Source of the DNA: a virus | Lineage: Duplodnaviria; Heunggongvirae; Uroviricota; Caudoviricetes | DNA length: 13,072 nucleotides | Direction: 5' to 3' (one strand) | IMG/VR virus record: IMGVR_UViG_2671180695_000008 | Shown: positions 1 to 12,644 of the stretch, piece by piece | Position numbering within the stretch: position 1 is the first letter of the stretch | Layout of the letters: each line of letters begins with the position of its first letter | Notes under the pieces: generated by a model | Seen by the model: only the letters and a program-made list of their open reading frames with translations | What the model was told of the DNA's origin: nothing | The model's database searches: none | Position numbers and translations under genes: made by a program

Positions 1-1
1 A

Positions 2-157
2 TTAACCGGTAAACGGGTGGTGTCTGTCCAGAAAGATGGTCGCAGAATTGAATATACGGCGGCTTCTCTGGATGAGCTTAACCGGGCGATCAATGATGCG
101 GAGTCGGTACTGGGGACAACCCGCCGTCGCCGTCGTCCGCTGGGAGTGAGGTTATGA
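2..157 (+). CDS. Head completion protein (lambda gpW-like), C-terminal part; 5' end lies outside the window
   Basis: Frame-2 translation ...GKRVVSVQKDGRRIEYTAASLDELNRAINDAESVLGTTRRRRRPLGVRL* resembles the C-terminus of lambda gpW as recalled (GKRVATVQKDGRRVEFTA...RRRG). Its stop overlaps the portal ATG (ATGA), and it sits directly upstream of the portal as in lambda W-B. Confidence 0.6.
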   Translation, partial: LTGKRVVSVQKDGRRIEYTAASLDELNRAINDAESVLGTTRRRRRPLGVRL

Positions 158-1026
158 AACGAACGCCTGTCCTGATTGATGTGAACGGCGTTCCGCTTCG
201 TGAGAGTCTCAGCTACAACGGGGGCGGTGCAGGATTTGGCGGGCAAATGGCGGAGTGGTTGCCACCGGCGCAGAGTGCCGATGCAGCCCTGCTGCCTGCG
301 TTGCGTCTGGGGAATGCCCGGGCAGATGATCTGGTGCGCAATAACGGGATAGCGGCCAATGCGGTGGCCCTGCATAAGGATCATATTGTCGGGCATATGT
401 TTCTGATCAGCTACCGTCCGAACTGGCGCTGGCTGGGGATGCGGGAGACTGCGGCAAAAAGTTTTGTCGATGAGGTGGAGGCGGCCTGGTCGGAATACGC
501 CGAAGGGATGTTTGGCGAGATCGACGTGGAAGAGAAACGCACGTTTACGGAATTTATTCGTGAAGGTGTGGGCGTTCATGCGTTTAACGGCGAAATCTTT
601 GTGCAGCCGGTCTGGGATACGGAGAGCACGCAACTGTTTCGTACGCGTTTTAAAGCCGTGAGTCCGAAACGGGTGGACACGCCAGGACACGGTATGGGGA
701 ACCGTTTTCTGCGGGCCGGTGTGGAGGTCGATCGATATGGTCGTGCCGTTGCGTACCATATCTGTGAGGATGATTTTCCGTTCTCCGGGAGTGGACGATG
801 GGAACGGATCCCGCGTGAACTTCCCACCGGGCGTCCGGCCATGCTGCATATTTTCGAGCCGGTGGAGGACGGGCAGACCCGTGGGGCTAATCAGTTTTAC
901 AGCGTCATGGAACGGCTGAAGATGCTCGATTCCCTGCAGGCAACACAGCTTCAGTCGGCCATAGTGAAGGCGATTTATGTCTATCATCTCACCGTAGTTG
1001 CCCGCATCGTTCGCCAACTCCACTGA
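154..1026 (+). pseudogene. Portal protein (lambda gpB-like), N-terminal fragment interrupted by an inserted element
   Basis: Translation matches the lambda gpB N-terminal half by recall (GNARADDLVRNNG, FEPVEDGQTRGAN, MLD.LQ.TQLQSAIVKA). Similarity ends after ...SAIVKAIY (codons through 978), followed by 16 unrelated codons (VYHLTVVARIVRQLH) and a stop. The remainder of the portal resumes at 11871. Confidence 0.85.
967..979. other. Candidate attL core (AAGGCGATTTATG) inside the portal coding sequence
   Basis: The same 13-mer with one mismatch (AAGGCGATGTATG) recurs at 11865..11877. Both copies are in the same codon phase of the portal frame, encoding K-A-(I/M)-Y. Confidence 0.65.
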
Positions 1027-1103
1027 AACCCTTGCTGCGTCTGGAATGTCGTTTTCCATGCTTTTGATGACCGTTCATCACCCTTCCAGTTTTTCGCGGT
1101 TTT

Positions 1104-1156
1104 GTGTATTGCAATGTGTATTGCAAATTGGCGATCGGGATGGGTGTGTATTGCAA
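1104..1156. repeat. Three direct copies of GTGTATTGCAA just upstream of int; candidate integrase arm-type binding sites
   Basis: Copies at 1104..1114, 1116..1126 and 1146..1156. Related copies lie at the opposite end of the element (11770..11790). Confidence 0.55.
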
Positions 1157-1174
1157 ATCTCTTGAGGGCTTTTA

Positions 1175-2416
1175 ATGGCTATTGAAAACAAACTCAGTGA
1201 CAAACTGTTAAAGAGTCTTGTCGGAAAACGGCAGGACAAACAAAAAACAATAGCGGATGGGCGCGGGTTGTCTGTGCGTGTAAGCATGGTTGGGGGGATC
1301 AGCTTTGTTTTTTACTATCGTCTTGGTGGCAGGGAATCCCCTCCGGTATGGCTTACACTTGGTCGCTATCCTGACATGTCTCTTGCAACGGCCAGGCGCA
1401 TGCGTGATCAGTGCCGTGAATGGCTGGCTGAAAATCTGGACCCCCGCAGGCAAATAAAACTTGCTGCCGAAAAAACTATGCAACCAGTGACCGTAAGGGA
1501 TGCGCTGTTTTACTGGTACGACAATCACGCCACAACAGCCAGAAAAGAGCATGAATATTTAATAAAACGATTTGAAAAGCATATCTTCCCCTATATCGGT
1601 GATATGGCTATAGAACAGTGCAAATTACACACATGGCTTACCGTCTTTGACAGGATCAAAAAAAATGCGCCTGTTATGTCTGGTGCAATTTTTCTTGATA
1701 TCAAACAGGCGTTGCGTTTTTGTCGCGTCAGGCAATACATCGCGTGCGATCCCTTTGGAGATATTAACGTAAGTTATGTCGGGCGCTCATCCGGTATAAG
1801 GGATCGCGTTCTTAATATCAATGAAACCGCTGATGTATGGTCTTATGCTTACGGTAATAATTTGCTAACTCTGTCATCAATATATAACCGAAGAATAATG
1901 GTTATCTGCCTGGTGTTTGGTTGCCGACAGCAGGAGGCGAGGCTATCCACCTGGGACGAATGGGATTTAAAAAACTGGGTATGGACAGTCCCAAAAGAGC
2001 ACAGCAAAAACAAGGAGGCTATAGTAAGGCCTGTTCCTGACGGAATAAAACAATGGATCGTTAATCTTTACGCAGAAACAAAAAATCGCGGTTATGTTGT
2101 CGGTTGTGCTTTGCAAAGGGCGACAATAACAGGGGCTGCAAACAGAATATGCAGGCGTCTTGGTCATGATACTAATGGCTTGTGGTGCATACATGATTTC
2201 AGGCGCACATTTTCCACTACGCTTAATGATATGGGGGCGGATCCTTATATTGTCGAACTTCTTTTAGGTCATAAAGTGAAAGGGGTTGCTGGTGTTTACA
2301 ATAAAAGCAGGCATATAAAGAAAAAACTTGAGGTGCTTAATATGTGGGTTAATTACCTTAATACGATAGCAGGATTTAACAACAACGTTATCGAGCTTAA
2401 TAAAGAGGTGGTGTGA
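1175..2416 (+). CDS. int: Tyrosine recombinase / integrase (P4-type)
   Basis: 413 aa ORF. N-terminal arm-binding-like region and a C-terminal catalytic region with HDFRRTF...LLGHK...GVAGVY motifs typical of phage integrases. First gene inside the insertion, next to the junction and arm-type repeats. Confidence 0.9.
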   Translation: MAIENKLSDKLLKSLVGKRQDKQKTIADGRGLSVRVSMVGGISFVFYYRLGGRESPPVWLTLGRYPDMSLATARRMRDQCREWLAENLDPRRQIKLAAEKTMQPVTVRDALFYWYDNHATTARKEHEYLIKRFEKHIFPYIGDMAIEQCKLHTWLTVFDRIKKNAPVMSGAIFLDIKQALRFCRVRQYIACDPFGDINVSYVGRSSGIRDRVLNINETADVWSYAYGNNLLTLSSIYNRRIMVICLVFGCRQQEARLSTWDEWDLKNWVWTVPKEHSKNKEAIVRPVPDGIKQWIVNLYAETKNRGYVVGCALQRATITGAANRICRRLGHDTNGLWCIHDFRRTFSTTLNDMGADPYIVELLLGHKVKGVAGVYNKSRHIKKKLEVLNMWVNYLNTIAGFNNNVIELNKEVV

Positions 2417-2417
2417 T

Positions 2418-2675
2418 ATGGCAATTTATTCTCTTGTTGATGAAAACGATTTGCGCACAATGAAGGACATTGATCGGTTCATTCGTGAAAAAGAGTGCAT
2501 AGCACTTACCACGCTGGCAAACTCAACACGCTGGAAAATGGAGCAGGCAGGTAAATTCCCGCGACGTATCAAGATCGGTGAACGTGCTGCAGGGTATCGA
2601 CTTTCAGAGGTTCAGGCATGGATCCGTGGTGAGTGGCATCCTGGATGGAAACCTGGAAAAACAAAACAGCAATAA
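2418..2675 (+). CDS. alpA: AlpA-family HTH regulator / excisionase-like protein
   Basis: 85 aa; motif ...ALTTLANSTRWKMEQAGKFPRRIKIGERAAGYRLSEVQAWI matches the AlpA (Phage_AlpA) fold pattern. Its start overlaps the int stop, and a strong SD (AGAGGTGG) precedes it. Confidence 0.85.
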   Translation: MAIYSLVDENDLRTMKDIDRFIREKECIALTTLANSTRWKMEQAGKFPRRIKIGERAAGYRLSEVQAWIRGEWHPGWKPGKTKQQ

Positions 2676-2688
2676 CCAGTAAATAATG

Positions 2689-2711
2689 CCCCTCATCACG
2701 AGGGGTTTTTT
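2689..2711 (+). terminator. Rho-independent terminator after alpA
   Basis: Stem CCCCTC (2689..2694) pairs with GAGGGG (2700..2705) around loop ATCAC, followed by TTTTTT (2706..2711). Confidence 0.8.
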
Positions 2712-2731
2712 GTCTATAAGGTAAAAACGCG

Positions 2732-3310
2732 ATGAATAAAAATATTGCTGTGACGGGCAAGGGGTACGCTCGTCCAGTGAAAAAATTCTGCGATATTCGT
2801 GATCTCGTCGTTCTGCGCTTTGATAGTGTGAACGTTCGTGTGGTGTATCTGAACGGCGATCCGTGGTTTGTTGCAAAAGATGTTTGTGCTGCGCTGGAAC
2901 TAACCAATTCGCGTACGGCGTTGCAGATGCTTGATGATGATGAAAAGGGAGTAAATTTAACTTACACCCCAGGAGGAAATCAGAATATGAGAATTATCTC
3001 TGAGTCAGGTTTCTACAAACTAATAGCCCGCAGCCGCAAAGCAACGACGCCTGGCACATTTGCTCATCGTTTCAGTAACTGGGTATTCAGAAATGTGATA
3101 CCAGGTATCAGAAAAACGGGGACTTATGGTATCCCGTGGGGTGCATTACAGGATTTTTCCCGCCGTAAAGAGCAATATCAAATAAGTGCCAGCGAGAAGG
3201 GGAGGGAGCTACAGGCATGTAAGCGCAAAAAGCGTGAGCTGGAGGAAGAAGAAAAAACGCTGATACGTGAATATCAGCCTGAGTTTTACTTTGGTAACCG
3301 CATTCAGTGA
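2732..3310 (+). CDS. Bro-N domain protein (phage antirepressor-like)
   Basis: 192 aa; the segment VRVVYLNGDPWFVAKDVCAALELTNSRTALQMLDDDEKG...ISESGFYKLIARSRKATTPGTFAHRFSNWV has the Bro-N / AntA N-terminal pattern (D/E-PWFVAKDV...L.....A). The C-terminal part is charged and probably coiled. Confidence 0.7.
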   Translation: MNKNIAVTGKGYARPVKKFCDIRDLVVLRFDSVNVRVVYLNGDPWFVAKDVCAALELTNSRTALQMLDDDEKGVNLTYTPGGNQNMRIISESGFYKLIARSRKATTPGTFAHRFSNWVFRNVIPGIRKTGTYGIPWGALQDFSRRKEQYQISASEKGRELQACKRKKRELEEEEKTLIREYQPEFYFGNRIQ

Positions 3311-3340
3311 CAAAACAAAGGCGACCGCAAAAGGGTCGCC
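3311..3340 (-). terminator. Hairpin acting mainly as a minus-strand intrinsic terminator, between the convergent Bro and minus-strand genes
   Basis: Stem GGCGACC (3320..3326) pairs with GGTCGCC (3334..3340) around loop GCAAAAG. On the minus strand it is followed by TTTGTTTTGT (plus 3311..3319). No U-run follows on the plus strand. Confidence 0.6.
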
Positions 3341-3406
3341 AGTGGGAACAAGGGAAAACAAAAGCATCACCAACAATGCCACATTTGCGGCTGGTGGGCA
3401 ATGTGA

Positions 3407-3586
3407 TCAGTCAGATTTGGTTCGTTCCAAGGTTTGCAACGAGAGCTTTTTCCTGTGCTCTTTAAGGAATTTCTCAAGAGCAAACGAACAAGGTGCGAAT
3501 CTTTCTGATTCATGTTCATGCGCTATATTTTTGCGTCGTCTCTTACGAGTTGGTGATGGTGTTTTGGTTGATTCTGTGTCGCTCAT
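3407..3586 (-). CDS. Small basic hypothetical protein (59 aa), absent from the supplied ORF track
   Basis: Translated by hand from the minus strand: MSDTESTKTPSPTRKRRRKNIAHEHESERFAPCSFALEKFLKEHRKKLSLQTLERTKSD*. An AGGA lies 8 nt upstream of the ATG; it follows the 3644..3949 gene and precedes the minus-strand terminator. Confidence 0.45.
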   Translation of the reverse strand: MSDTESTKTPSPTRKRRRKNIAHEHESERFAPCSFALEKFLKEHRKKLSLQTLERTKSD

Positions 3587-3643
3587 GGTGCTGTCCTGTA
3601 AAGCAATGCGCCTGCGTTCCTCAAACTATGGCGCTGATATTGG

Positions 3644-3949
3644 CTATTCATGCTCTTTGACCTTGCGTCGCTGGAGTTCTTCACGCGCGACGGTGACGAG
3701 TTGCCCGATCTCCTCGGCTGCTTTGATGCCGATTTGTTCGACCTTAGCCAGGGCATCCAGTGACGACACAAGGGGATTTTCTCCGCTGCCTTCTGCTTGG
3801 CGGCGGGCTATTTCTCCGCGCATGGCGGTTACGATAAATCCGGCATTGCTTTCACCGTCCAGCTTAACGGATTCCATCCCTTGCATAACATCTAGTGGGA
3901 CTCTGACAGTTGTCAGTTGTGATTTTGCGTTTTTGTTAGCCGTTGCCAT
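3644..3949 (-). CDS. Hypothetical small regulator (possible DNA-binding protein), divergent from the rightward operon
   Basis: 101 aa with a strong SD (TAGGAGTTTCAGAA-ATG on the minus strand). It is transcribed divergently from a palindromic operator region. No family is recognised with confidence; a ribbon-helix-helix-like N-terminus is possible but unverified. Confidence 0.55.
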   Translation of the reverse strand: MATANKNAKSQLTTVRVPLDVMQGMESVKLDGESNAGFIVTAMRGEIARRQAEGSGENPLVSSLDALAKVEQIGIKAAEEIGQLVTVAREELQRRKVKEHE

Positions 3950-3970
3950 TTCTGAAACTCCTAATCATCG

Positions 3971-4048
3971 GTGTGTTTCAGTATACACAAAAAAAGAAAT
4001 ACAAAAAGCCTTGACGTGTGTTTCATGCGCTCATAACATGAAACACAC
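3971..4048. promoter_or_regulatory. Divergent control region with a 12-bp perfect inverted repeat, a third half-site and a candidate rightward promoter
   Basis: GTGTGTTTCATG (4016..4027) and its reverse complement CATGAAACACAC (4037..4048) are separated by 9 bp. A further GTGTGTTTCA half-site lies at 3971..3980. TTGACG (4011..4016), a 17-bp spacer and TAACAT (4034..4039) overlap the palindrome. Confidence 0.55.
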
Positions 4049-4139
4049 CGAAAGGATTGTTGAAATACAAAGAGCAACGCCCCGCAGTGCTGGGAACACA
4101 TACGGGGCGTCTAACCAACAACGTAAACTAGGAGCCGTT

Positions 4140-4337
4140 ATGGTTGCTGTAAATCATATACCACACCTTGTACACACACAAACGGCCTTTGTGTGGCGTT
4201 TTCTGGCACTGAGTGCCGGAGAATCTCAAATCATCCACGTAACCGCCTGGACGGAACGCGAAGCGCGTAGCCGTTGCCCGTCCGGTTGTGTTGCTGTATT
4301 CGCTGCAAAAATCCGCCAGGGAGTGAGTCATGCTTAA
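4140..4337 (+). CDS. Hypothetical small protein (65 aa), possible first gene of the rightward operon
   Basis: ATG preceded by AGGAG at the correct spacing. It shares a frame with a long, compositionally odd ORF (3267..4337) that is otherwise rejected, so coding status is uncertain. Confidence 0.35.
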   Translation: MVAVNHIPHLVHTQTAFVWRFLALSAGESQIIHVTAWTEREARSRCPSGCVAVFAAKIRQGVSHA

Positions 4338-4515
4338 AACCTTCCGTGTATTTGCCCGAGCTGTTAACCCAATAGGCCACACAATTGGTATCGCTCAGAA
4401 TGTGAAGGCTGTTAATGTTCAGACGGCTATTGCTGCGGTGAGAAGCGAATCATCAGAATATGGCTTATCACAAGTCATTATTTCAGCAGTGTATGAATTA
4501 AAAGAGGTGCATTAA
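4330..4515 (+). CDS. Hypothetical protein (61 aa)
   Basis: SD GGAGTGAG upstream. Its stop overlaps the next start (TAATG), suggesting translational coupling. Confidence 0.5.
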   Translation: MLKTFRVFARAVNPIGHTIGIAQNVKAVNVQTAIAAVRSESSEYGLSQVIISAVYELKEVH

Positions 4516-4706
4516 TGCAGGAAATTACATTACACGAAGCCGCTGAACGTGCGCACCAGACAGAAATTATTTGCCGCCTTCTTGAGGTATACCCGAACAA
4601 AATTACAGATGCTGATATATCCGCACTGGCGAGCCTACTGGCGCGTCTTTCGGGAAGTGTCGCTAGTTTTTTGATTGAGGAAGAAAGTAAGCTGGTGGGG
4701 GATTAA
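4515..4706 (+). CDS. Hypothetical protein (63 aa)
   Basis: SD AAGAGG upstream; start is coupled to the preceding stop. Confidence 0.5.
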   Translation: MQEITLHEAAERAHQTEIICRLLEVYPNKITDADISALASLLARLSGSVASFLIEEESKLVGD

Positions 4707-4928
4707 ATGAATACAGAACGGGAAGTCTTTTTTAAATTGTTAGCATGTGCAGAAAGTTCATTAACTTTAAATAATTCAGCAAAAGCAATATTAAATATGT
4801 GGCTTGATTGCATAAATGACAATGAAGATGCAAATATTGCTTATGGCCTGTTGTCACTTATTGATGAATCAGCAGAAAAACTCAATGACGCAATAAATAG
4901 TGCCCTGCTATCAAATAAGTCGAGTTAA
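4707..4928 (+). CDS. Hypothetical protein (73 aa), visibly more AT-rich than its neighbours
   Basis: Starts immediately after the previous stop. Its base composition differs from flanking genes, suggesting a separately acquired cargo gene. Confidence 0.5.
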   Translation: MNTEREVFFKLLACAESSLTLNNSAKAILNMWLDCINDNEDANIAYGLLSLIDESAEKLNDAINSALLSNKSS

Positions 4929-4945
4929 GTCGAGGAATAAATAAT

Positions 4946-5245
4946 ATGGAAATGAAAAATTCTGGCTTTATTGCCAGCGGCCCCGCTCGACCTGAATTTA
5001 TGAACGGCGATATTTACCGCGATAAATACGGCGGCACGGTAACGATTAAAGGCGTGGCAGAACGGCGCATCACTTACCGCCGTGAGGGGTATAGCTATGA
5101 CTGCGTGATGCCTGTTTATCAGTTCCGGCGTGATTTTTCCCTGGTATATGCCGCACCCCGCAGTAAGCCCATCAGCAGGGAAAAAGCGTGGGGAAATATC
5201 CAGAAAATGAAAACCATGATTAACGGATTCAGAGGTAAAAAATGA
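4946..5245 (+). CDS. Hypothetical protein (99 aa)
   Basis: SD GAGGA upstream. Its stop overlaps the primase-helicase start (ATGA), placing it in the replication operon. Confidence 0.55.
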   Translation: MEMKNSGFIASGPARPEFMNGDIYRDKYGGTVTIKGVAERRITYRREGYSYDCVMPVYQFRRDFSLVYAAPRSKPISREKAWGNIQKMKTMINGFRGKK

Positions 5246-6996
5246 AACTGGCACCGAACGTAAAACAGCAGTCACGCGGCATAAAACACAAAGGAACAGA
5301 AGTCATTATTTTTGCGGGTAGTGATGCCTGGGCACACGCGAAACAATGGCAGGAACATGATGCGCGTATGGCCGGAGATAATGAGCCTCCTGTGTGGCTT
5401 GGGGAGCAGCAGCTATCCGAACTGGATAATCTGCAAATTGTGCCGGAAGGCCGAAAATCAGCACGCATATACAGGGCCGGATATCTTGCGCCTGTAATGA
5501 TAAAGGCGATTGGTCAGAAGCTGGCGGCAGCAGGCGTACAGGATGCAAATTTTTATCCTGAGGGTATGCACGGCCAGGAGGTGCAGAACTGGCGCGAATA
5601 TCTGGCCCGTGAACGCCAGAATCTTTCTGATGGTCTGGTCATTGAGCTTCCGGTAAAGCAAAAGGCGCAACTTTCGCAGATGGCGGACAGTGAGCGCGCG
5701 CAGTTGCTTGCCGATCGCTTTGATGGCGTTTGCGTACATCCTGAAAGTGAAATCGTTCACGTATGGCGCGGCGGGGTATGGTGTCCGGTCAGCACAATGG
5801 AACTTAGCCGCGAAATGGTGGCGATCTATTCAGAGCACAGGGCCACTTTCAGCAAGCGCGTAATCAATAACGCCGTGGAAGCGTTAAAAGTTATTGCCGA
5901 ACCAATGGGCGAGCCGTCTGGCGATTTGCTGCCGTTCGCCAATGGTGCGCTTGACCTGAAAACGGGGGAATTTTCCCCGCACACGCCGGAGAACTGGATC
6001 ACCACGCACAACGGCATTGAGTACACGCCACCAGCACCAGGGGAGAACATCCGCGATAACGCGCCAAACTTTCATAAATGGCTTGAGCACGCAGCCGGAA
6101 AAGACCCGCGCAAGATGATGCGTATATGTGCCGCGCTGTACATGATTATGGCGAACCGGTACGACTGGCAGATGTTTATTGAGGCCACCGGAGACGGCGG
6201 GAGCGGTAAAAGTACATTCACACACATAGCCAGCCTTCTGGCAGGGAAACAGAACACGGTAAGCGCTGAAATGACATCGCTTGATGATGCTGGTGGACGT
6301 GCGCAGGTTGTCGGGAGTCGTCTTATCGTCCTGGCTGACCAGCCGAAATATACAGGCGAAGGAACGGGCATCAAGAAAATCACAGGCGGCGACCCCGTGG
6401 AAATTAACCCGAAATATGAAAAGCGTTTCACGGCGGTAATCAGGGCGGTGGTGCTGGCGACCAACAACAACCCGATGATATTCACCGAACGGGCCGGAGG
6501 TGTGGCACGTCGTCGCGTGATTTTCCGTTTCGACAATATCGTCAGTGAGGCCGAAAAAGACAGGGAGCTACCGGAAAAGATTGCGGCTGAAATCCCCGTT
6601 ATTATCCGCCGATTGCTGGCGAACTTTACCGACCCTGAGAAGGCACGGGCTTTACTACTGGAACAGCGTGACGGTGATGAAGCACTGGCAATAAAGCAAC
6701 AGACGGATCCGGTTATTGAGTTTTGCCAGTTCCTGAATTTTCTGGAGGAAGCGCGCGGCCTGATGATGGGTGGCGGTGGTGATTCAGTGAAGTACACGAC
6801 CAGGAACAGCCTTTACCGCGTCTATCTGGCGTTTATGGCATACGCGGGCAGGAGCAAACCGCTAAACGTGGCTGAGTTCAGCAAGGCCATGAAGCCAGCG
6901 GCGAAAGTTTACGGGCATGAATATATTACGCGAAAAGTTAAGGGAGTAACGCAGACCAACGCAATTACAACAGACGATTGCGACGCGTTTTTATAA
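5242..6996 (+). CDS. Replication protein: P4-alpha / D5-type primase-helicase (SF3 P-loop NTPase)
   Basis: 584 aa. Walker A motif ATGDGGSGKST, a D5_N-like segment LPFANGALDLKTGEF and a following NTPase core resemble the C-terminal helicase region of P4-family primases. The N-terminal ~150 aa are not confidently assigned. An iteron array follows immediately. Confidence 0.85.
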   Translation: MKLAPNVKQQSRGIKHKGTEVIIFAGSDAWAHAKQWQEHDARMAGDNEPPVWLGEQQLSELDNLQIVPEGRKSARIYRAGYLAPVMIKAIGQKLAAAGVQDANFYPEGMHGQEVQNWREYLARERQNLSDGLVIELPVKQKAQLSQMADSERAQLLADRFDGVCVHPESEIVHVWRGGVWCPVSTMELSREMVAIYSEHRATFSKRVINNAVEALKVIAEPMGEPSGDLLPFANGALDLKTGEFSPHTPENWITTHNGIEYTPPAPGENIRDNAPNFHKWLEHAAGKDPRKMMRICAALYMIMANRYDWQMFIEATGDGGSGKSTFTHIASLLAGKQNTVSAEMTSLDDAGGRAQVVGSRLIVLADQPKYTGEGTGIKKITGGDPVEINPKYEKRFTAVIRAVVLATNNNPMIFTERAGGVARRRVIFRFDNIVSEAEKDRELPEKIAAEIPVIIRRLLANFTDPEKARALLLEQRDGDEALAIKQQTDPVIEFCQFLNFLEEARGLMMGGGGDSVKYTTRNSLYRVYLAFMAYAGRSKPLNVAEFSKAMKPAAKVYGHEYITRKVKGVTQTNAITTDDCDAFL

Positions 6997-7010
6997 TTTT
7001 TTGTAAAAGC

Positions 7011-7232
7011 CATCTACCCCATCTACCTGAACAAAATAAACGCATATTATTCAACATGATAAGTGGGTATAGGGCTAGGTAGAAGGCTAATAAAAGCTCT
7101 CTACCTCTTCTACCTGATTTTATCAGTTTCAGGTAGCAGGGTAGACGGCAGGTAGAGGAGTCAAAAAGCTATCTACCCGCTGAAAGCCGCGCCATTACTG
7201 ACATGATGAGCATTCGGGTAGATGGGTAGAGG
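7011..7232. repeat. Iteron array; candidate replication origin
   Basis: About 11 copies of the core TCTACC / GGTAGA in both orientations within ~220 bp (for example CATCTACCCCATCTACC, CTCTACCTCTTCTACC, GGTAGCAGGGTAGACGGCAGGTAGAGG, GGTAGATGGGTAGAGG). It lies directly downstream of the primase-helicase gene in an otherwise non-coding stretch. Confidence 0.7.
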
Positions 7233-7280
7233 GGGGGAGGCACAACTAAAAACTTTTTAAACGAGGGGGGGTGAAAATAA

Positions 7281-7595
7281 ATGCGCATACATAAAAATCA
7301 CTTAACAAACATGCCAGCCGAAAACATGAATCAGGGGCGACAAATGACCAAAATTCGCAGAGACAGAACACAGGCAAAATATAAAGCGTTAGACATGACA
7401 GAGCTTTCCTTAAAGGTGGCAATCAAAGCGATAGACCACCACACACGGGCAGGATACGCGAAGGAACATCCCGACCTGATAAGCGCATTCATGACCACAG
7501 CAGCGGCAAACTTTGCCACGCTGACAGAACGGGAGATTGCCGAAGCGGAACAGGTGACAACCATCAATGTTAAAACCGGAGAGCAGACAGCATGA
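7281..7595 (+). CDS. Hypothetical protein (104 aa)
   Basis: G-rich SD (GAGGGGGGG) upstream. Its stop overlaps the next start (ATGA). The start codon is uncertain because internal Met codons exist. Confidence 0.5.
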   Translation: MRIHKNHLTNMPAENMNQGRQMTKIRRDRTQAKYKALDMTELSLKVAIKAIDHHTRAGYAKEHPDLISAFMTTAAANFATLTEREIAEAEQVTTINVKTGEQTA

Positions 7596-8014
7596 CAGCA
7601 CAGATAGCGGCTTACGGGCGGCTGGTGGCTGACCCGCAGTTAAAGACCACCAGCAAAGGGACACAAATGGCGATGGCGAGTATGGCGGTTCCCCTGCCGT
7701 GCAGCCAGGCAGATGACGGAACGGCGACGATGTGGTTATCCGTCCTGGCGTTTGGCAGACAGGCCGACGCACTGGCAAAACACCACAAAGGCGAACTGGT
7801 GAGCGTGGCGGGTAACATGCAGGTAAGCCAGTGGACAGGCCAGAACGGCGAAACGCGGCGGGGCTGGCAGGTTATCGCAGACAGCGTAATCAGTGCGCGA
7901 ACGGCGCGACCGGGCGGCAAAAAAGGCCAGCAGGGGCAGGCCACTGACGCACTGAACAGGGCAAAACAACAGTCGGGGAATGATGATCCGTACGGCGATA
8001 ATATACCGTTTTAA
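7592..8014 (+). CDS. ssb: Single-stranded DNA-binding protein-like (OB fold, C-terminal ...NIPF tail)
   Basis: 140 aa with the pattern GRLVADPQL...G...A.......W.SV.AFG..A..LAK..KGELV.V.G......W....G..R.....ADSV, then a Gly/Gln-rich linker ending DDPYGDNIPF. This resembles the SSB OB core and its acidic ...DDDIPF protein-interaction tail. Confidence 0.7.
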   Translation: MTAQIAAYGRLVADPQLKTTSKGTQMAMASMAVPLPCSQADDGTATMWLSVLAFGRQADALAKHHKGELVSVAGNMQVSQWTGQNGETRRGWQVIADSVISARTARPGGKKGQQGQATDALNRAKQQSGNDDPYGDNIPF

Positions 8015-8021
8015 ATTCTGC

Positions 8022-8050
8022 AAACAAAAAGATGCCGGAAAAAAATAGAT
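8022..8050. other. 11-bp-stem hairpin in the SSB / capsid intergenic region (possible terminator or regulatory structure)
   Basis: ATGCCGGAAAA (8022..8032) pairs with TTTTCCGGCAT (8040..8050) around a 7-nt loop. No clean U-run follows on the plus strand, so terminator function is uncertain. Confidence 0.4.
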
Positions 8051-8225
8051 TTTCCGGCATGCTACATAAATCCCGACCAAAGGAAGTAAATACATTAACA
8101 CGAATTATCAGCACTGAAGTTGTTACGGCATATTTTATACAACATTGCACTTGGTTGCATGTATTCGCATAGCAGACATCGGTAATAGAATATATTCACA
8201 ATTATTTGTAATGAATGTAAAGAGG

Positions 8226-9272
8226 ATGAGTATGGTTGATTTATATTCGCCTACACAGCTTGTGCAGGTGGCTAATGCTGAAGATGTGCAAAAAAAATTA
8301 AATGCGTTGTTTACCAGTTTGTTTTTCACTCGCTCGGTAATGTTTGAATCGAGAGACATTATTCTTGATACGATCGACGATCCAAATATCCCGATCGCGG
8401 CGTTTTGCTCTCCTATGGTGGGCAGTAAAGTTTCACGAGATGAGGGATACGAATCAAAAACAATTCGTCCAGGTTATATGAAGCCGAAAAGCAGCATTGA
8501 TCCAAATAAGTTAGCTGTGCGCCCTGCTGGTGTGTCACCTGAGCAATACAATGCTTTTGGGGCGCGTAATATTAAAGTTAAACAGGCGATTGTAAATCAG
8601 GCTAAAGCTATTCGTGCACGTATTGAATGGCTTGCTGTTCAGGCAATCACAACGGGGAAAAATATCATTGAGGGCGATGGTATTGAACGTTATGAGCTGG
8701 ACTGGAATATAAAACCACAAAATATCATCACTCAGTCTGGCGGTACTGAGTGGTCAGGTAAGGATAAAGAAACTTTTGATCCAAATGATGATATTGAGAG
8801 CTACGCAGAATTTAGTGAGGGCGTCACTAATATCATCATTATGGGTGGTAATGTATGGAAGAAATACCGTTCATTCAGAGCGATAAAAGAGGCTTTGGAT
8901 ACCCGTCGTGGTTCTAATTCCGAACTGGAAACGGCCCTTAAAGACCTTGGTGATTCGGTGAGTTTTAAAGGGTATATGGGCGATGTTGCGATTGTTGTTT
9001 ACAGCGGGCGTTATACCGACGAGGACGGAACAGAAAAACATTTCCTTGATCCTGATTTGATGGTGCTTGGCAATACGGCTCTTCAGGGGATTGTCGCCTA
9101 TGGCGGTATTCAGGATCCGGAGCTAATCCGAATGGGGCTGACTAAAGCCGAACTTGCACCGAAAAACTATATTGTGCCTGGTGATCCGGCTATTGAATAT
9201 GTGCAGACACATTCAGCACCACAGCCAATACCGGCCCGCATCAATCGTTTTGTTACCGTTCGCATTGGCTAA
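8226..9272 (+). CDS. Major capsid protein (lambda gpE-like)
   Basis: Motifs NIITQSGGTEWS, DTRRGSNSELETA, GDVAIVVYSG and MVLGNT match lambda E as recalled. The chosen start MSMVDLYSPTQL parallels lambda MSMYTTAQL and has SD AGAGGA; the ORF track's upstream start at 8145 is less likely. Confidence 0.85.
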   Translation: MSMVDLYSPTQLVQVANAEDVQKKLNALFTSLFFTRSVMFESRDIILDTIDDPNIPIAAFCSPMVGSKVSRDEGYESKTIRPGYMKPKSSIDPNKLAVRPAGVSPEQYNAFGARNIKVKQAIVNQAKAIRARIEWLAVQAITTGKNIIEGDGIERYELDWNIKPQNIITQSGGTEWSGKDKETFDPNDDIESYAEFSEGVTNIIIMGGNVWKKYRSFRAIKEALDTRRGSNSELETALKDLGDSVSFKGYMGDVAIVVYSGRYTDEDGTEKHFLDPDLMVLGNTALQGIVAYGGIQDPELIRMGLTKAELAPKNYIVPGDPAIEYVQTHSAPQPIPARINRFVTVRIG

Positions 9273-9281
9273 GGGGGAGCA

Positions 9282-9623
9282 ATGGCTACTCATTACACTG
9301 AACTCATGGCTGGCACTGAAGCACTGGTGACTACGCTGGGGATATTTTCAGCTAATAAAGGGGTAATTCCTGCATTTACGCCACTGATGCAGGAAGATGC
9401 AACAGGTGCACTGGTGGTATGGGATGGTTCGAGCGTAGGTAAAGCGGTTTATGTTTCCGCTGTACAAATCGACACAGCGAAAAAAACACAGGCACAGGTT
9501 TATAAGACAGGTGTTTTAAATGTTGATGCTCTGAACTGGCCTGAGTCTGTAAAAGAACTGTCGGCAAAGGTTGCCGCGTTTGTTGGCTCAGGTATTTCTG
9601 TTCAGCCGCTGGCTCGTGTGTAA
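9282..9623 (+). CDS. Head decoration protein (lambda gpD-like)
   Basis: 113 aa; the pattern TPLM....G.LV.WDG...G.AV.......T.....YK.G......L.WPE matches lambda D as recalled. SD GGGGGAG upstream. It follows the capsid gene, the reverse of the lambda D-E order. Confidence 0.75.
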   Translation: MATHYTELMAGTEALVTTLGIFSANKGVIPAFTPLMQEDATGALVVWDGSSVGKAVYVSAVQIDTAKKTQAQVYKTGVLNVDALNWPESVKELSAKVAAFVGSGISVQPLARV

Positions 9624-9634
9624 AGGGGGATACA

Positions 9635-10018
9635 ATGCAGAATCATTACAATGACCTTAAGCCAATTGCCGAAATGATGTATCCGGATCCAGCAGTAGAG
9701 GAATTAAAGGCTATTGCTGACAAAATGCGTTTAAGTGAACGCCTTGTTGATATGAATCAGGTGATGGAACTTACTACCCTTAGCCGTCGCACATTGCTAA
9801 ACCTTGAGGCTCGCGGAGAGTTCCCCGAACGCGTACAGGTTACGGAAGGGCGTAAGGCCTGGTATTTAAGTGAAGTGATCGACTGGATAAACAATATTCC
9901 TCGATCTTCTGAATATTGCCGCGTACCTGTCCCAAAAAAGCCAGATGCGGCGCTATGCCTCAAGATTGAGCGTGTACGTCGCAATGCACGGGATGGTCGC
10001 TATAAGTTGATTGGTTGA
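9635..10018 (+). CDS. AlpA/MerR-like HTH domain protein (second AlpA-family member)
   Basis: 127 aa; the segment VDMNQVMELTTLSRRTLLNLEARGEFPERVQVTEGRKAWYLSEVIDWI fits the AlpA-type HTH pattern. It has an N-terminal extension and a basic C-terminus, a GGGGGA SD upstream, and lies immediately upstream of the cos site. Confidence 0.6.
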   Translation: MQNHYNDLKPIAEMMYPDPAVEELKAIADKMRLSERLVDMNQVMELTTLSRRTLLNLEARGEFPERVQVTEGRKAWYLSEVIDWINNIPRSSEYCRVPVPKKPDAALCLKIERVRRNARDGRYKLIG

Positions 10019-10029
10019 TGAAATTAGGG

Positions 10030-10108
10030 CCCGTTCTGGCTGGCGGGTCCTTTCCGGCGATCCGGTAGGCTACGGGGCGGCGACCTCGCGGGTTTTCGCT
10101 ATTTATGA
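10030..10108. other. Lambda-type cos site (cosQ-proximal sequence plus cosN with the 12-nt cohesive end GGGCGGCGACCT)
   Basis: 10072..10108 ACGGGGCGGCGACCTCGCGGGTTTTCGCTATTTATGA is identical to the recalled lambda cosN / left-end sequence (cohesive end at 10075..10086). The upstream GGGTCCTTTCCGGCGATCCGGTAGGCTACG closely matches the recalled lambda right-end sequence. Downstream cosB-like sequence has diverged, and a Nu1-like gene follows. Confidence 0.85.
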
Positions 10109-10219
10109 GCCTTTTTCGGGTGCTGGTGGTGGTTTTGTTGTTCGCTCTATCTCTATGAATAAAAAGGAAAAGATAAAGCCAATACACCAACCTGAAACAT
10201 TACTTAAGTGGGGATATTG

Positions 10220-10762
10220 ATGAAATCGCACCTGATGAACAAAAAAAACATGGCGCAAAGCTGCCATGTAAGTGCGACAGCGTTCGACAAGTGGGGAGTG
10301 ACTCCCGTTGAACGTAAAGGCCGCGAGGCGTTTTATGATGTTGCCAGCGTAATAGACAATCGGGTTAGCAATGCAATTAACCAGATTACAGACGACAAAG
10401 GCGAGATTGATGATGATGAACTCCTACGAGTCAGGATCAGATTGCTGACAGCACAGGCAGAGGCGCAGGAGCTTAAAAACGAGCGCGAACGCGGCGACGT
10501 TATTGATACCGCGTTTTGTATATACGTGCTTTCAAAATTGGCGAGTCAGATTTCTTCAATCATGGACAGCCTGCCGCTTGCCATGACAAGGAAGTTTCCC
10601 GACATGAAGCCGTCTATGCTGGATGGACTGAAAAAAGAAGTTATCAGAGCCTGTAACGCATGCGCAAAACTTGACGAAAACATACCGCTGATGCTGTCCG
10701 ATTATCTGATGGAAACTGCCGGAAACGTACCGGATAAGTTGCAGCCGAATAAAGATAAGTAA
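10220..10762 (+). CDS. Terminase small subunit (lambda Nu1-like)
   Basis: Matches lambda Nu1 by recall (RLTRAQADAQELKNARD...ETAFC.FVLSRIAGEIASILDGLPL...RFPE compared with RLLTAQAEAQELKNERERGDVIDTAFCIYVLSKLASQISSIMDSLPLAMTRKFPD). Start is uncertain: ATG at 10220 (GGGGA SD) is chosen, with alternatives GTG 10208 and ATG 10235. It sits downstream of cos as in lambda. Confidence 0.85.
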   Translation: MKSHLMNKKNMAQSCHVSATAFDKWGVTPVERKGREAFYDVASVIDNRVSNAINQITDDKGEIDDDELLRVRIRLLTAQAEAQELKNERERGDVIDTAFCIYVLSKLASQISSIMDSLPLAMTRKFPDMKPSMLDGLKKEVIRACNACAKLDENIPLMLSDYLMETAGNVPDKLQPNKDK

Positions 10763-10773
10763 CGTAGTACGCT

Positions 10774-11055
10774 ATGACTGAATCCGAAATACTGCGATTA
10801 ATCCGCCGTGCTTGTGGAATCAGCAAGCAGCATGACGAACAGGCCACGCAGCCGGACAGCGTGACCGCAGATAATTATGTGCGTGTAGTGGCTGAGGTGA
10901 TGCGCCGTGACGGTATTGAGCTTAACGGCGTGGATATGCGCAACATACGAACAAGAGTCCTTGAGTTGCTGGCATATCGTCGCCGTTCTCAACAACGGAG
11001 GGAGAGCGCGAAAAACACTTACCAGTGGAAGAAGCCGGAACGATTGCGGCGGTAA
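10774..11055 (+). CDS. Hypothetical basic protein (93 aa) in the position where lambda encodes the large terminase
   Basis: ORF starts 11 nt after the TerS stop and is Arg-rich. No convincing family match; no obvious SD, so possibly translationally coupled. Confidence 0.45.
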   Translation: MTESEILRLIRRACGISKQHDEQATQPDSVTADNYVRVVAEVMRRDGIELNGVDMRNIRTRVLELLAYRRRSQQRRESAKNTYQWKKPERLRR

Positions 11056-11070
11056 CTTGCTGATATTCCC

Positions 11071-11094
11071 GATAACGCAAAATTGCGCTGGCTG
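11071..11094. repeat. Direct repeat GATAACGC-N5-TTGCGCTGGCTG (copy 1; copy 2 at 11257..11280)
   Basis: The two 24-bp copies differ at 3 positions and lie 186 bp apart in the non-coding right arm. Each is followed by a TTGCA/TGCAA-type near-palindrome. Confidence 0.5.
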
Positions 11095-11306
11095 ACTTGT
11101 TGCATTGCAAAAAGTTAAGCAGGAAGGCACGGCCTGTAAGATGGGATGCAGTAAGTAGTTCAAGGCTACCTTGTGCTGGCACGCACAGTTAAGCCGTCGG
11201 TGCTGGATATCCCCCACTGGGGGAAAAGCTGGCTACATCCCTCACATCTGAGGACTGATAACGCGACATTGCGCTGGCTGGCAAAGTGCAAAATTGCACG
11301 ATGGCC

Positions 11307-11468
11307 TAACCCATTGATTATTTCGAAAACCTGCAATGCAGGAAATCGGGGAAGTAAGCCTAAGCTATTGATTGTTTCGAAAACCCCCATTGGGGGATGT
11401 CGGGAAAGTAAGACTAACCCATTGATTCTTCCACAATCCTCAATTTGAGGAGGCCGGAACGTCTACAT
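11307..11468. repeat. Tandem ~54-bp repeat (3 units) each containing a 5-bp-stem, 3-nt-loop hairpin with covarying stems; candidate structured RNA or recognition array
   Basis: Units 11307..11360, 11361..11414 and 11415..11468 share TAA(C/G)C(C/T)ATTGATT...TTCGAAAAC and CGGG.AAGTAAG flanks. Internal hairpins are CCTGC-AAT-GCAGG (11330..11342), CCCCC-ATT-GGGGG (11384..11396) and CCTCA-ATT-TGAGG (11438..11450). The third unit is more diverged. Confidence 0.6.
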
Positions 11469-11769
11469 AGCTGCATCGCCGTAATGATGATTCAGCCCAC
11501 CAGCCAAATCAGCACAGCAACGACAGAATAGCCCGACACAGAAAAACCACGAATATGGGGTTTTTGTTATGACATGGTCATGATGACCACTCATACAAAA
11601 CAGGTAAAGCCCACCAGCCTGATTAAAGGTTAACCGGAAAAAAGCCAGGTATCCAATCTCGATATGGGGATCCCTATATCGACATTAACGCCCACTAAAA
11701 CTGTGCATATATGCATAGAAAAAGCATCCACCAGCTTTATGACGGATGCCGCTCATCTTATAAATAATC

Positions 11770-11790
11770 GTGTATTGCAGTGTGTATTGC
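11770..11790. repeat. Two direct copies of GTGTATTGC(A) near the right junction; candidate integrase arm-type sites
   Basis: GTGTATTGCA at 11770..11779 and GTGTATTGC at 11782..11790, in the same orientation as the three copies beside int. An AT-rich tract lies between them and the att core. Confidence 0.5.
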
Positions 11791-11864
11791 GACTCCTTTA
11801 AACGATAGGTCTGAGCATTCGTAATGTACTGTTTTTAAATTTTATTTTTTCCTGTCTTTTCATA

Positions 11865-11877
11865 AAGGCGATGTATG
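11865..11877. other. Candidate attR core (AAGGCGATGTATG)
   Basis: Matches 967..979 at 12 of 13 positions. Portal homology resumes here (IKAMYAATIE...). Confidence 0.65.
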
Positions 11878-12644
11878 CAGCGACGATTGAAAGTGACCTT
11901 GATACCGAAAAGGCCTTTGAATATATCGCCGGTGCGCCGCAGGGGCAGAAGGATAATCCGCTTATTAATATTCTGGATAAGTTCTCCACCTGGTATGACA
12001 CGAATAGCGTGACGCTGGGTGGTGTCAAAATTCCGCACCTTTTCCCCGGTGATGATCTGAAACTTCAGACCGCGCAGGATTCAGACAATGGATTTTCGGC
12101 GCTTGAACAGGCGCTGCTGCGGTATATCGCCGCCGGTCTTGGCGTTTCCTACGAACAGTTGTCCCGTGATTACTCGAAGGTCAGTTATTCAAGTGCCCGC
12201 GCATCCGCCAATGAGTCGTGGCGCTATTTTATGGGGCGGCGAAAATTTATTGCGTCCCGGCTGGCCACGCAGATGTTTTCCTGCTGGCTGGAAGAGGCAC
12301 TTCTTCGGGGGATTATTCGTCCGCCACGGGCACGTTTTGATTTTTATCAGGCGCGATCAGCCTGGTCACGGGCTGAGTGGATTGGAGCCGGAAGAATGGC
12401 CATTGACGGGCTCAAGGAGGTTCAGGAATCAGTGATGCGCATTGAGGCCGGACTGAGCACGTATGAGAAAGAGCTGGCGCTGATGGGCGAGGATTATCAG
12501 GACATTTTCCGCCAGCAGGTCAGGGAATCTGCAGAGCGGGAAAAAGCCGGACTCTCACGTCCGGTGTGGATAGCGCAGGCGTATCAGCAGAAGATAGCGG
12601 AGAGTCGCAGGCCGGAAGAGGAGACAACACCACGTGAGACGTAA
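11871..12644 (+). pseudogene. Portal protein (lambda gpB-like), C-terminal fragment downstream of the insertion
   Basis: Translation MYAATIESDLDTEKAFEYI...LGGVKIPHLFPGDDLKLQTAQDSDNGFSALEQALLRYIAAGLGVSYEQLSRDYSKVSYSSARASANESWRYFMGRRKF...WIGAGRMAIDGLKEVQESVMRIEAGLSTYEKE matches the lambda gpB C-terminal half by recall. The ORF begins at a fortuitous in-frame ATG, and similarity starts at about 11862. Confidence 0.85.

What the first reader, a model, noticed from the sequence alone, without database searches (positions are those of the whole stretch)
154..12644. Portal gene of the host prophage is split by the element; precise excision would rebuild an intact ~530-codon portal ORF
Portal homology stops at codon 275 of the N fragment (through 978) and resumes at 11877. 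Both junctions carry AAGGCGAT(T/G)TATG in the same codon phase, so recombination across the core joins 275 + 255 codons in frame, close to lambda gpB length. While integrated, the helper portal should be non-functional, so element excision could act as a switch on helper virion production. Targeting a conserved structural gene rather than a tRNA or intergenic attB is unusual.
Basis: partly seen in the sequence, partly recalled or inferred. Interest (0 to 1): 0.85.

Follow-up and report, generated by a model that had tools for sequence, protein, structure and literature searches.

The report
Known satellite splitting a prophage portal gene
A 10.9-kb phage satellite sits inside the portal gene of a lambda-like E. 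coli prophage and would rebuild that gene on excision, but this element, this site and this idea were published in 2023 as "helper-embedded PICIs".

Summary
AAGGCGAT(T/G)TATG occurs only at 967-979 and 11865-11877, in the same codon phase. The two flanking ORFs cover adjacent parts of the lambda-family portal profile (positions 2-242 and 238-354). Joining them across the core gives a 530-codon ORF. That ORF occurs uninterrupted in other E. coli genomes, one of them 2173/2174 identical to the window's flanks. The 10,898-bp insert is a Gram-negative PICI-type satellite. It carries int, alpA, a Bro-N gene, a D5-type primase, SSB, capsid and decoration homologues, its own cos and a Nu1-like TerS.

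Tommasini, Mageeney and Williams (2023, PMC10111431) described helper-embedded PICIs. Their list includes site B:Phage_portal_2:241 with core "aaggcgat" in 11-kb E. coli elements. Their supplementary attL and attR strings are exact substrings of this window, and their doubled TGTATTGC arm motif is present in both arms.

Excision that restores the late gene was shown experimentally only for a sister element in capsid gene E. For the portal site it remains an inference. I found no attP junction in any collection searched. Verdict: real, correctly read, already known, low novelty.

The parts
1..157 (+). 3' end of the helper prophage gpW-like head-tail joining gene, cut by the window edge
   Evidence: PGAP annotation of the equivalent region in L001. 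The offset used is L001 position minus 8021.
154..974 (+). Helper portal gene, N-terminal part. It covers codons 1-273 plus the first two bases of codon 274, and the ORF then reads on into the element to a stop at 1026.
   Evidence: Pfam Phage_portal_2 profile 2-242, E=7e-63. 973/974 identical to the uninterrupted allele in L003.
967..979 (+). attL identity block AAGGCGATTTATG. The crossover core is AAGGCGAT, 967-974.
   Evidence: The paper's supplementary file gives 'aaggcgat' for B_Phage_portal_2_241. Its 107-nt attL string is an exact substring of the window starting at 967.
1103..1125 (+). P' arm doubled motif tgTGTATTGCaatgTGTATTGCa. A further single copy lies at 1145-1158.
   Evidence: expected 0.00 by chance. 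It matches the HE-PICI-specific attP motif of PMC10111431. The offset of 138 nt from the core start is the same in L001 and L004.
1175..2416 (+). Tyrosine integrase, 413 aa, co-oriented with the portal gene
   Evidence: Pfam Arm-DNA-bind_3, Phage_int_M and Phage_integrase. Motifs GCRQQE (249), HDFRR (340), LLGH (363) and GVYNK (373) are present. An identical protein is in the database cluster P0001.
2418..2675 (+). AlpA-family regulator or excisionase
   Evidence: Pfam Phage_AlpA, E=5e-14.
2732..3310 (+). Bro-N domain protein (the paper's 'Bro zone')
   Evidence: Pfam Bro-N, E=5e-20. PGAP annotation.
3644..3949 (-). YlcI/YnfO family protein, the only annotated minus-strand gene of the element
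   Evidence: PGAP annotation of the identical region in L001. AT skew dips to -0.305 at 3501-4000.
4140..5245 (+). Icd-like cell-division inhibitor, three small hypothetical genes and a DUF4222 gene
   Evidence: PGAP annotation in L001 and L002.
5242..6996 (+). D5/P4-type primase-helicase (replication zone)
   Evidence: Pfam D5_N, DUF5906 and Pox_D5.
7004..7141 (.). Repeat-rich stretch just downstream of the primase gene, a candidate satellite origin of replication
   Evidence: Direct repeats D8 and inverted repeat I12. Its position matches the paper's statement that the ori lies downstream of pri. The assignment is an inference.
7592..8014 (+). Single-stranded DNA-binding protein
   Evidence: Pfam SSB, E=5.5e-16.
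8232..9272 (+). Satellite major capsid protein, lambda gpE family
   Evidence: Pfam Phage_cap_E, E=4e-41. 42% identical to the helper capsid protein of L002. Start taken from PGAP.
9282..9623 (+). Head decoration protein homologue
   Evidence: PGAP annotation. The equivalent gene in L004 carries Pfam HDPD.
9635..10018 (+). Second AlpA-type helix-turn-helix protein
   Evidence: Pfam Phage_AlpA, E=1.3e-8.
10043..10120 (+). Satellite cos site. The cosQ/cosN region includes the exact lambda 12-nt cohesive-end sequence GGGCGGCGACCT at 10075-10086.
   Evidence: exact match; the alignment to helper cos is conserved through cosN and then diverges; this is the only stretch of the element that matches deposited lambdoid phage genomes, up to 95.5%.
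10220..10762 (+). Satellite small terminase subunit, Nu1-like over its C-terminal half
   Evidence: Pfam Phage_Nu1 over residues 69-152, profile 79-162. 37% identical to helper Nu1 (nohD), with conservation concentrated in the C-terminal half.
11056..11864 (.). About 0.8 kb of unannotated DNA forming the P arm. It includes three 54-nt tandem repeats (11304-11465) and the doubled motif at 11769-11791.
   Evidence: The doubled motif starts 94 nt before the core start, as in L001 and L004.
11865..11877 (+). attR identity block AAGGCGATGTATG
   Evidence: The paper's 65-nt attR string is an exact substring of the window starting at 11814.
11873..12644 (+). Helper portal gene, C-terminal part (the last base of codon 274 through the stop)
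   Evidence: Pfam Phage_portal_2 profile 238-354, E=4e-30. The right flank is 1200/1200 identical to the uninterrupted allele.
12634..13072 (+). 5' part of the helper S49 (gpC-like) prohead protease gene, cut by the window edge
   Evidence: PGAP annotation in L001 and L003.

Best explanation
[quoted passage not shown] It is a 10,898-bp phage satellite inserted by its own tyrosine integrase into an 8-bp core (AAGGCGAT) at codons 272-274 of the portal gene of a lambda-like E. coli prophage, and it is co-oriented with the helper's late operon.

What is shown here:
- The insertion is precise.
- It carries no replacement for the 3' part of the portal gene and no portal gene of its own.
- Recombination across the core would rebuild an intact 530-codon portal gene identical to alleles seen uninterrupted elsewhere.

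What is inferred, from the published model and from sister-element data:
- After helper induction, the composite excises and replicates.
- Late transcription from the helper's late promoter runs through W and the portal N fragment into int-alpA. I found no terminator-like site in between.
- The satellite then excises, and only then can portal protein, and therefore any procapsid, be made.
- The satellite is packaged from its own cos site by helper TerL, recruited by the satellite's Nu1-like TerS. The C-terminal half of that TerS resembles helper Nu1, while its N-terminal half and the adjacent cosB region are divergent.
- The satellite's gpE-like and gpD-like proteins may contribute to the capsids.

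The net effect is a delay and a tax on helper virion production that is timed by the satellite.
For: Precise insertion and reconstruction.

Identity with the published group:
- Core 'aaggcgat', site name B_Phage_portal_2_241 and 11-kb E. coli elements (10,899 bp by the listed coordinates of Eco14781.11) appear in the supplement of PMC10111431.
- The published attL and attR strings are exact substrings of the window.
- The doubled TGTATTGC motif is present in both arms at fixed spacing.

Integrase clade and late-gene tropism, reproduced independently:
- An 88%-identical integrase in Edwardsiella tarda sits at the same portal site.
- A 77%-identical integrase in Serratia follows a portal N fragment.
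- A 54%-identical integrase in E. coli splits capsid gene E.

Recent mobility:
- The element is 99.94% identical in prophages whose portals are 96.6% and about 65% identical to the window's.
- The element-side left end occurs in 64 of 5426 complete genomes, and all 60 rows listed abut an annotated portal pseudogene.

Other support:
- All key genes are co-oriented with the portal, and no terminator-like site lies between 900 and 1300.
- The satellite has its own cos, TerS and capsid genes.
- The published experiment on the sister element 11capE found attB and attP appearing after composite excision and replication, with 42-98% satellite excision at 2-3 h.
Against: There is no direct evidence of excision for this element or this site. 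The predicted attP junction was absent from IMG/VR viral contigs, metagenome contigs, GTDB genome contigs and all complete E. coli genomes.

Empty sites may never have been occupied rather than excised. The authors could not recover virions even for 11capE, and they note that many helpers look truncated. The Serratia relatives I fetched are truncated composites.

The window shows only about 2 kb of helper, so whether this helper is viable cannot be judged. The read-through trigger, TerS-driven packaging and the role of the satellite capsid genes are all inferences.
Confidence: 0.9

Rival explanations
1. Dead-end insertion. The satellite integrated once into a prophage that is now defective. 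It no longer excises, so the split portal is a fossil and not a working switch.
For: The authors report that many HE-PICI helpers appear truncated, and they could not obtain virions. The Serratia relatives retain only the portal N fragment, int and alpA, followed by chromosomal genes. No attP junction was found in any collection. One occupied locus (L002) lies at the DLP12-like ybcL-nohD site, which in K-12 holds a defective prophage (the K-12 comparison is from my own knowledge).
Against: The integrase ORF is intact with its catalytic motifs, and both att arms and arm motifs are intact. The portal fragments differ from a live-looking uninterrupted allele at 1 of 2174 positions and carry no frameshift or stop. 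The element is 99.94% identical in three different prophage backgrounds, which needs recent excision, transfer and reintegration. L001 and L002 show full late operons from terminase to the tape measure gene.
Confidence: 0.08
2. Chance or rearrangement. The 13-bp repeat is coincidental, and the two portal fragments come from different prophages brought together by recombination.
For: None found.
Against: The repeat is expected 0.01 times by chance. The Pfam profile coordinates abut exactly. An uninterrupted allele matches both flanks at 2173/2174. The same junctions recur in 64 genomes and in Edwardsiella.
Confidence: 0.01

Closest known systems
HE-PICI group B:Phage_portal_2:241 (Tommasini, Mageeney and Williams 2023, NAR Genom Bioinform, PMC10111431), for example Eco14781.11.B_Phage_portal_2_241 and Eco10269.11.B_Phage_portal_2_241
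   Same: Same host species and same target gene and codon. Same 8-bp core (aaggcgat) and essentially the same size (10,898 bp here, 10,899 bp by the listed coordinates). Element-side attL and attR sequences are identical over the 107 nt and 65 nt compared. Same doubled arm motif, same orientation relative to the late operon, and the same four-zone layout.
   Different: Nothing of substance. The helper portal allele here differs from the lambda-like allele of the examples I could read. The paper itself shows that the site is used across divergent portal alleles.
11capE / E:Phage_cap_E:80 HE-PICI of E. coli NRG857c (same paper), the only member tested experimentally
   Same: Same integrase clade: a capsid-E-site integrase (P0013) is 54% identical to this one. 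The satellite backbone is largely the same, with window 3600-11076 being 85-95% identical at the DNA level to a capsid-site element (L007). Same doubled arm motif and same co-orientation.
   Different: The target is capsid gene E, and that element carries its own capsid gene as a possible back-up. The portal-site element carries no portal gene, so nothing can stand in for the interrupted gene before excision. The int, alpA and P-arm module is swapped, at 64-73% identity or unalignable. The paper states that 11capE lacks terS, whereas this element encodes a Nu1-like TerS.
Classical Gram-negative PICIs such as EcCICFT073 (Fillol-Salom et al. 2018, 2019; PMC6739421; reviewed in PMC9026076)
   Same: An int-alpA ... 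pri ... capsid ... cos layout, lambdoid helpers, and cosQ/cosN nearly identical to the helper's while cosB is unrelated.
   Different: Those elements integrate in chromosomal sites and interact with the helper only in trans. They redirect packaging with Rpp, a 135-153-aa protein thought to lack the TerL-binding C terminus. Here the gene after cos encodes a 180-aa protein whose C-terminal half resembles Nu1. Whether it acts like Rpp or as a complete replacement TerS is not known.
Regulated gene integrity / 'active lysogeny' elements. Examples recalled from my own knowledge, not checked here: Listeria phi10403S in comK, the B. subtilis skin element in sigK, SpyCIM1 in mutL.
   Same: A mobile element interrupts a gene without supplying a replacement, and the gene is restored by precise excision. 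The HE-PICI paper draws this parallel itself.
   Different: In those cases the interrupted gene belongs to the host cell and the regulation serves the host or the phage. Here the interrupted gene belongs to another mobile element, and the regulation probably serves the satellite.

Membership tests
HE-PICI (helper-embedded PICI), group B:Phage_portal_2:241 | Integrated within, and disrupting, a late gene of a lambdoid prophage, with no replacement sequence in attP | tested here: met
   The portal gene is split at Pfam profile position about 241. The N-fragment ORF runs into 15 unrelated codons and stops at 1026. No portal domain was found among the ten window ORFs scanned against Pfam, eight of them element ORFs, and PGAP annotates no portal gene inside the element.
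HE-PICI (helper-embedded PICI), group B:Phage_portal_2:241 | attL/attR identity block 'aaggcgat' at the published site | tested here: met
   The published attL (107 nt) and attR (65 nt) strings are exact substrings of the window.
HE-PICI (helper-embedded PICI), group B:Phage_portal_2:241 | Doubled motif tgTGTATTGCantgTGTATTGCa, one copy in each attP arm at fixed spacing (the paper gives 81 +/- 2 bp upstream and 132 +/- 2 bp downstream of the attP centre) | tested here: met
   The copies lie at 11769-11791 and 1103-1125, and chance expectation is 0.00. With the centre of the 13-bp block taken as the attP centre, the upstream motif ends 80 nt before it and the downstream motif starts 130 nt after it. 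The authors' reference points are not stated, so the agreement is approximate. Spacing is identical in L001, L002 and the Edwardsiella locus L004.
HE-PICI (helper-embedded PICI), group B:Phage_portal_2:241 | Integrase belongs to the single clade that targets prophage late genes | tested here: met
   I built no tree. The nearest relatives at 88% and 77% identity follow portal N fragments. A 54%-identical relative splits capsid gene E and has the same arm motif. This agrees with the published clade but is not a phylogenetic placement.
HE-PICI (helper-embedded PICI), group B:Phage_portal_2:241 | int, alpA and pri co-oriented with the interrupted late gene, and the four-zone PICI layout (integration, Bro, replication, late) | tested here: met
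   All of these genes are on the + strand, in the order int, alpA, Bro-N, pri, SSB, capsid, decoration, terS.
HE-PICI (helper-embedded PICI), group B:Phage_portal_2:241 | Excises after helper induction and restores the late gene | not testable with these tools
   Shown by qPCR and deep sequencing only for 11capE. My searches for the predicted attP of this element found nothing.
Phage satellite (PICI) in the functional sense | Mobilised in helper-derived virions | not testable with these tools
   The evidence is indirect. The element has its own cosN identical to lambda's. It lacks portal, protease, TerL and tail genes. It is near-identical across divergent helper backgrounds.
Capsid-forming PICI (cf-PICI) | Encodes a full head module: capsid, protease, portal, head-tail connectors and terminase | tested here: not met
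   Only capsid, decoration and TerS homologues are present. No portal or protease was found.

The most novel reading that the evidence does not exclude
The portal-site group may behave differently from the studied capsid-site element. It interrupts a gene for which it carries no back-up, yet it brings its own capsid, decoration, cos and full-length TerS-like genes. Satellite excision would then be an absolute gate on all procapsid assembly in the cell, for satellite and helper alike. The truncated portal products made before excision (a 290-aa N fragment, and possibly a 257-aa C fragment from the in-frame ATG at 11871) might poison portal rings of the helper or of co-resident lambdoid phages. 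The TerS-like protein might replace helper TerS outright instead of acting as an Rpp-type partner. None of this was tested here or, as far as I could find, elsewhere.
Probability: 0.1. Interest if true: 0.5.

Novelty: already known. Interest (0 to 1): 0.2.

Why it matters
The biology is of real interest. A parasite of a virus lodges inside an essential structural gene of that virus and thereby controls when, or whether, virions can be built. This is regulated gene integrity acting between two mobile elements.

The credit belongs to the 2023 HE-PICI paper, which lists this very element type. What this check adds is modest. It independently reproduces the site, the core and the arm motif. It gives a count in current complete E. 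coli genomes (64 of 5426). It shows the same satellite in portal alleles only about 65% identical to each other. It also notes that the portal-site group carries cos and a full-length TerS-like gene but no portal.

For genome annotation, the practical lesson is that a pair of 'portal pseudogenes' about 11 kb apart in a lambdoid prophage should be read as an occupied HE-PICI site and not as prophage decay.

Tried and rejected
- **attP junction searches.** I looked for the predicted circular or concatemer junction by exact pattern in IMG/VR viral contigs, metagenome contigs and GTDB genome contigs, and by megablast of a 200-nt attP against all complete E. coli genomes. None was found. This is uninformative rather than negative evidence, because assemblies rarely capture excised forms.
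- **The search for related loci with the integrase on genome contigs.** It returned nothing usable: 72 pattern matches, none confirmed. I replaced it with the search for homologous proteins and the look-up of encoding contigs.
- **Rfam scan of the whole window at E<=1.** No family matched, so there is no known immunity RNA or other curated RNA.
- **RNA folding of the three 54-nt repeats.** The z-score of -1.47 is not convincing, so I make no structural claim.
- **Deposited phage genomes.** No phage record carries the element. Only the roughly 70-bp cos region matches.
- **Chance repeat or chimeric prophage.** Considered and rejected.
- **cf-PICI membership.** Considered and rejected because there is no portal, protease or connector gene.
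- **The 356-aa ORF at 3267-4337.** Treated as spurious. PGAP instead annotates a minus-strand YlcI/YnfO gene and a short Icd-like gene there.

Full report
**1. The observation**

The 13-mer AAGGCGAT(T/G)TATG occurs exactly twice in the window, at 967-979 and 11865-11877. The chance expectation is 0.01, and none of 200 shuffles gave two copies. Counting from the ATG at 154, nt 967 opens codon 272. In the downstream ORF the core starts 6 nt before the in-frame ATG at 11871, so both copies are in the same phase.

Pfam places the upstream ORF (154-1026) on positions 2-242 of the 354-position lambda-family portal profile. It places the downstream ORF (11871-12644) on positions 238-354. The two fragments are therefore adjacent halves of one domain and overlap only at the duplicated core. 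Joining 154-974 to 11873-12644 gives a 1593-nt ORF of 530 codons. Its product matches the solved lambda portal protein B over residues 5-523. G+C content falls from about 0.55-0.59 in the flanks to about 0.38-0.55 in most of the insert.

**2. Empty sites**

The joined ORF occurs as one uninterrupted, annotated 'phage portal protein' gene in 1850 complete E. coli genomes at 80% coverage or more. The best hits are 99.9% identical. In strain fS25a (locus L003) the uninterrupted late operon matches the window's left flank at 973/974 positions and its right flank at 1200/1200. The site there reads AAGGCGATGTATG.

Comparing attB, attL and attR places the crossover within the 8-bp AAGGCGAT. The T at 975 comes from the element. 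The following TATG is shared between attP and attB.

**3. The insert**

The insert is 10,898 bp. In order on the + strand it encodes:
- a tyrosine integrase with an arm-binding domain and intact catalytic motifs
- an AlpA-family protein
- a Bro-N protein
- an Icd-like protein and several small proteins
- a D5/P4-type primase
- SSB
- a gpE-family capsid protein, 42% identical to the helper's
- a decoration protein
- a second AlpA-type HTH protein
- a Nu1-like small terminase subunit

One YlcI/YnfO gene lies on the minus strand. There is no portal, protease, TerL or tail gene. This is the layout of a Gram-negative PICI-type satellite.

**4. Its distribution**

The element occurs at 80% coverage or more in 53 complete E. 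coli genomes. Its left end occurs in 64 of 5426 genomes, and in all 60 rows listed it abuts an annotated portal pseudogene.

In strains EC28 and Ch1 it splits the portal genes of two different lambdoid prophages. Those portal fragments are 96.6% and about 65% identical to the window's, while the element itself is 99.94% identical in both. The same satellite has therefore recently entered divergent helpers at the same codon. This argues for an active, site-specific system and not a single ancient accident.

**5. It is already published**

They describe 491 HE-PICIs at 14 sites in nine lambda-cognate late genes. Of these, 97% lie at five sites in genes A, B, C and E. Their supplementary table lists E. 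coli 11-kb elements named Eco….11.B_Phage_portal_2_241 with the identity block 'aaggcgat'.

Their supplementary attL string (107 nt from the core into the element) and attR string (65 nt) for Eco10269.11.B_Phage_portal_2_241 are exact substrings of this window, at 967 and 11814. Their HE-PICI-specific doubled motif tgTGTATTGCantgTGTATTGCa is present once in each arm (1103-1125 and 11769-11791). The spacing agrees with their 132 +/- 2 and 81 +/- 2 bp, and it is identical in the other occupied loci I fetched.

**6. Independent reproduction of the clade's tropism**

- The closest non-E. coli integrase (88% identical, Edwardsiella tarda) sits between two portal fragments in an element of the same layout.
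- A 77%-identical Serratia integrase follows a portal N fragment, but the rest of the composite is lost.
- A 54%-identical E. coli integrase splits capsid gene E.

That capsid-site element shares its backbone with this one: window 3600-11076 is 85-95% identical at the DNA level. The int, alpA and P-arm module is only 64-73% identical or unalignable. So the same satellite body carries interchangeable integration modules.

**7. Mechanism**

*Shown.* Integration is precise, the interrupted gene has no back-up, and the element is co-oriented with the late operon. No terminator-like site lies between the portal N fragment and int.

*Published for the sister element 11capE.* After mitomycin C the whole composite excises and replicates. 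The satellite then excises at 2-3 h, with 42-98% yield, and restores the late gene. No virions were recovered.

*Inferred for this element.* Helper late transcription reads into int-alpA. Excision rebuilds the portal gene. Only then can procapsids form.

*Packaging, also inferred.* The satellite has the exact lambda cohesive-end sequence at 10075-10086. The surrounding cosQ/cosN region is conserved with the helper's, but the cosB side diverges. This is the only part of the element that matches deposited lambdoid phage genomes. Directly downstream lies a 180-aa TerS-like gene whose C-terminal half resembles helper Nu1 (37% identity overall) and whose N-terminal half is divergent. In lambda TerS the N terminus binds cosB and the C terminus binds TerL (review PMC9026076). 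I therefore infer that the satellite protein directs helper TerL to the satellite cos. This differs from the shorter Rpp proteins of EcCICFT073-type PICIs, which are thought to lack the TerL-binding end.

**8. What is missing**

There is no direct evidence of excision for this element. The predicted attP junction is absent from IMG/VR, the metagenome contigs, the GTDB genomes and all complete E. coli genomes. The window shows too little of the helper to judge its viability. I found no follow-up experimental paper on HE-PICIs in the held library.

**9. Verdict**

Element, site, core sequence and 'switch' idea are all in the literature. Novelty: already known. Interest: low as a discovery, although it is a clean, correct read of raw sequence.

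Noticed in passing
window 10043-10762: The satellite carries its own cos, with the exact lambda cohesive-end 12-mer at 10075-10086. The cosQ/cosN side is conserved with the helper and the cosB side diverges. It is followed by a full-length (180-aa) Nu1-like TerS whose C-terminal half resembles helper Nu1 and whose N-terminal half does not. This differs from the shorter Rpp proteins of EcCICFT073-type PICIs, and from the paper's statement that 11capE lacks terS.
   Followed up: partly
window 11304-11465: Three tandem 54-nt repeats (80% and 61% identical to the first copy). Each contains a short palindrome that differs between copies but stays self-complementary: CCTGCAatGCAGG, CCCCCAttGGGGG, CCTCAAatTTGAGG. 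They lie in about 0.8 kb of unannotated DNA next to attR. There was no Rfam match, and the RNA fold z-score is only -1.47. Function unknown.
   Followed up: partly
window 11080-11760; loci L009 and L010: Pieces of this non-coding P-arm region recur at 80-95% identity in about 1550 other E. coli genomes. One example is the end of a chromosomal PICI next to phoQ in O55:H7 CB9615, which has the same capsid-decoration-terS late zone. This suggests a conserved non-coding module at PICI ends.
   Followed up: partly
window 1166-2636 and 11077-11864, compared with 3600-11076; locus L007: A capsid-gene-E HE-PICI shares 85-95% DNA identity with this element across its backbone. Its int, alpA and P-arm module is only 64-73% identical or unalignable, which indicates modular exchange of the integration module between otherwise similar satellites. 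In L007 the portal attB (AAGGCGATGTATG) is intact and unoccupied while the capsid site is occupied.
   Followed up: partly
window 7004-7141: Direct repeats (TAAAAGCCATCTACCCCATCTACCTGA and TAAAAGCTCTCTACCTCTTCTACCTGA) and an inverted repeat lie immediately downstream of the primase gene. This is a candidate satellite replication origin.
   Followed up: no
window 3267-4337: A 356-aa GTG-initiated ORF on the + strand is probably spurious. PGAP instead annotates a minus-strand YlcI/YnfO gene (3644-3949) and a short Icd-like gene (4140-4337), and AT skew reverses sharply at 3501-4000.
   Followed up: partly
loci L005 and L006 (Serratia quinivorans): A 77%-identical integrase and alpA follow a portal N fragment, but the rest of the satellite and helper is replaced by MFS-transporter and type VI secretion genes. 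This is a truncated, probably stranded composite.
   Followed up: no
window 11871: The attR core supplies an in-frame ATG (the Met of K-A-M-Y), so a 257-aa C-terminal portal fragment could in principle be translated. The only Shine-Dalgarno-like AAGG lies just 2 nt upstream, which makes efficient initiation doubtful.
   Followed up: no
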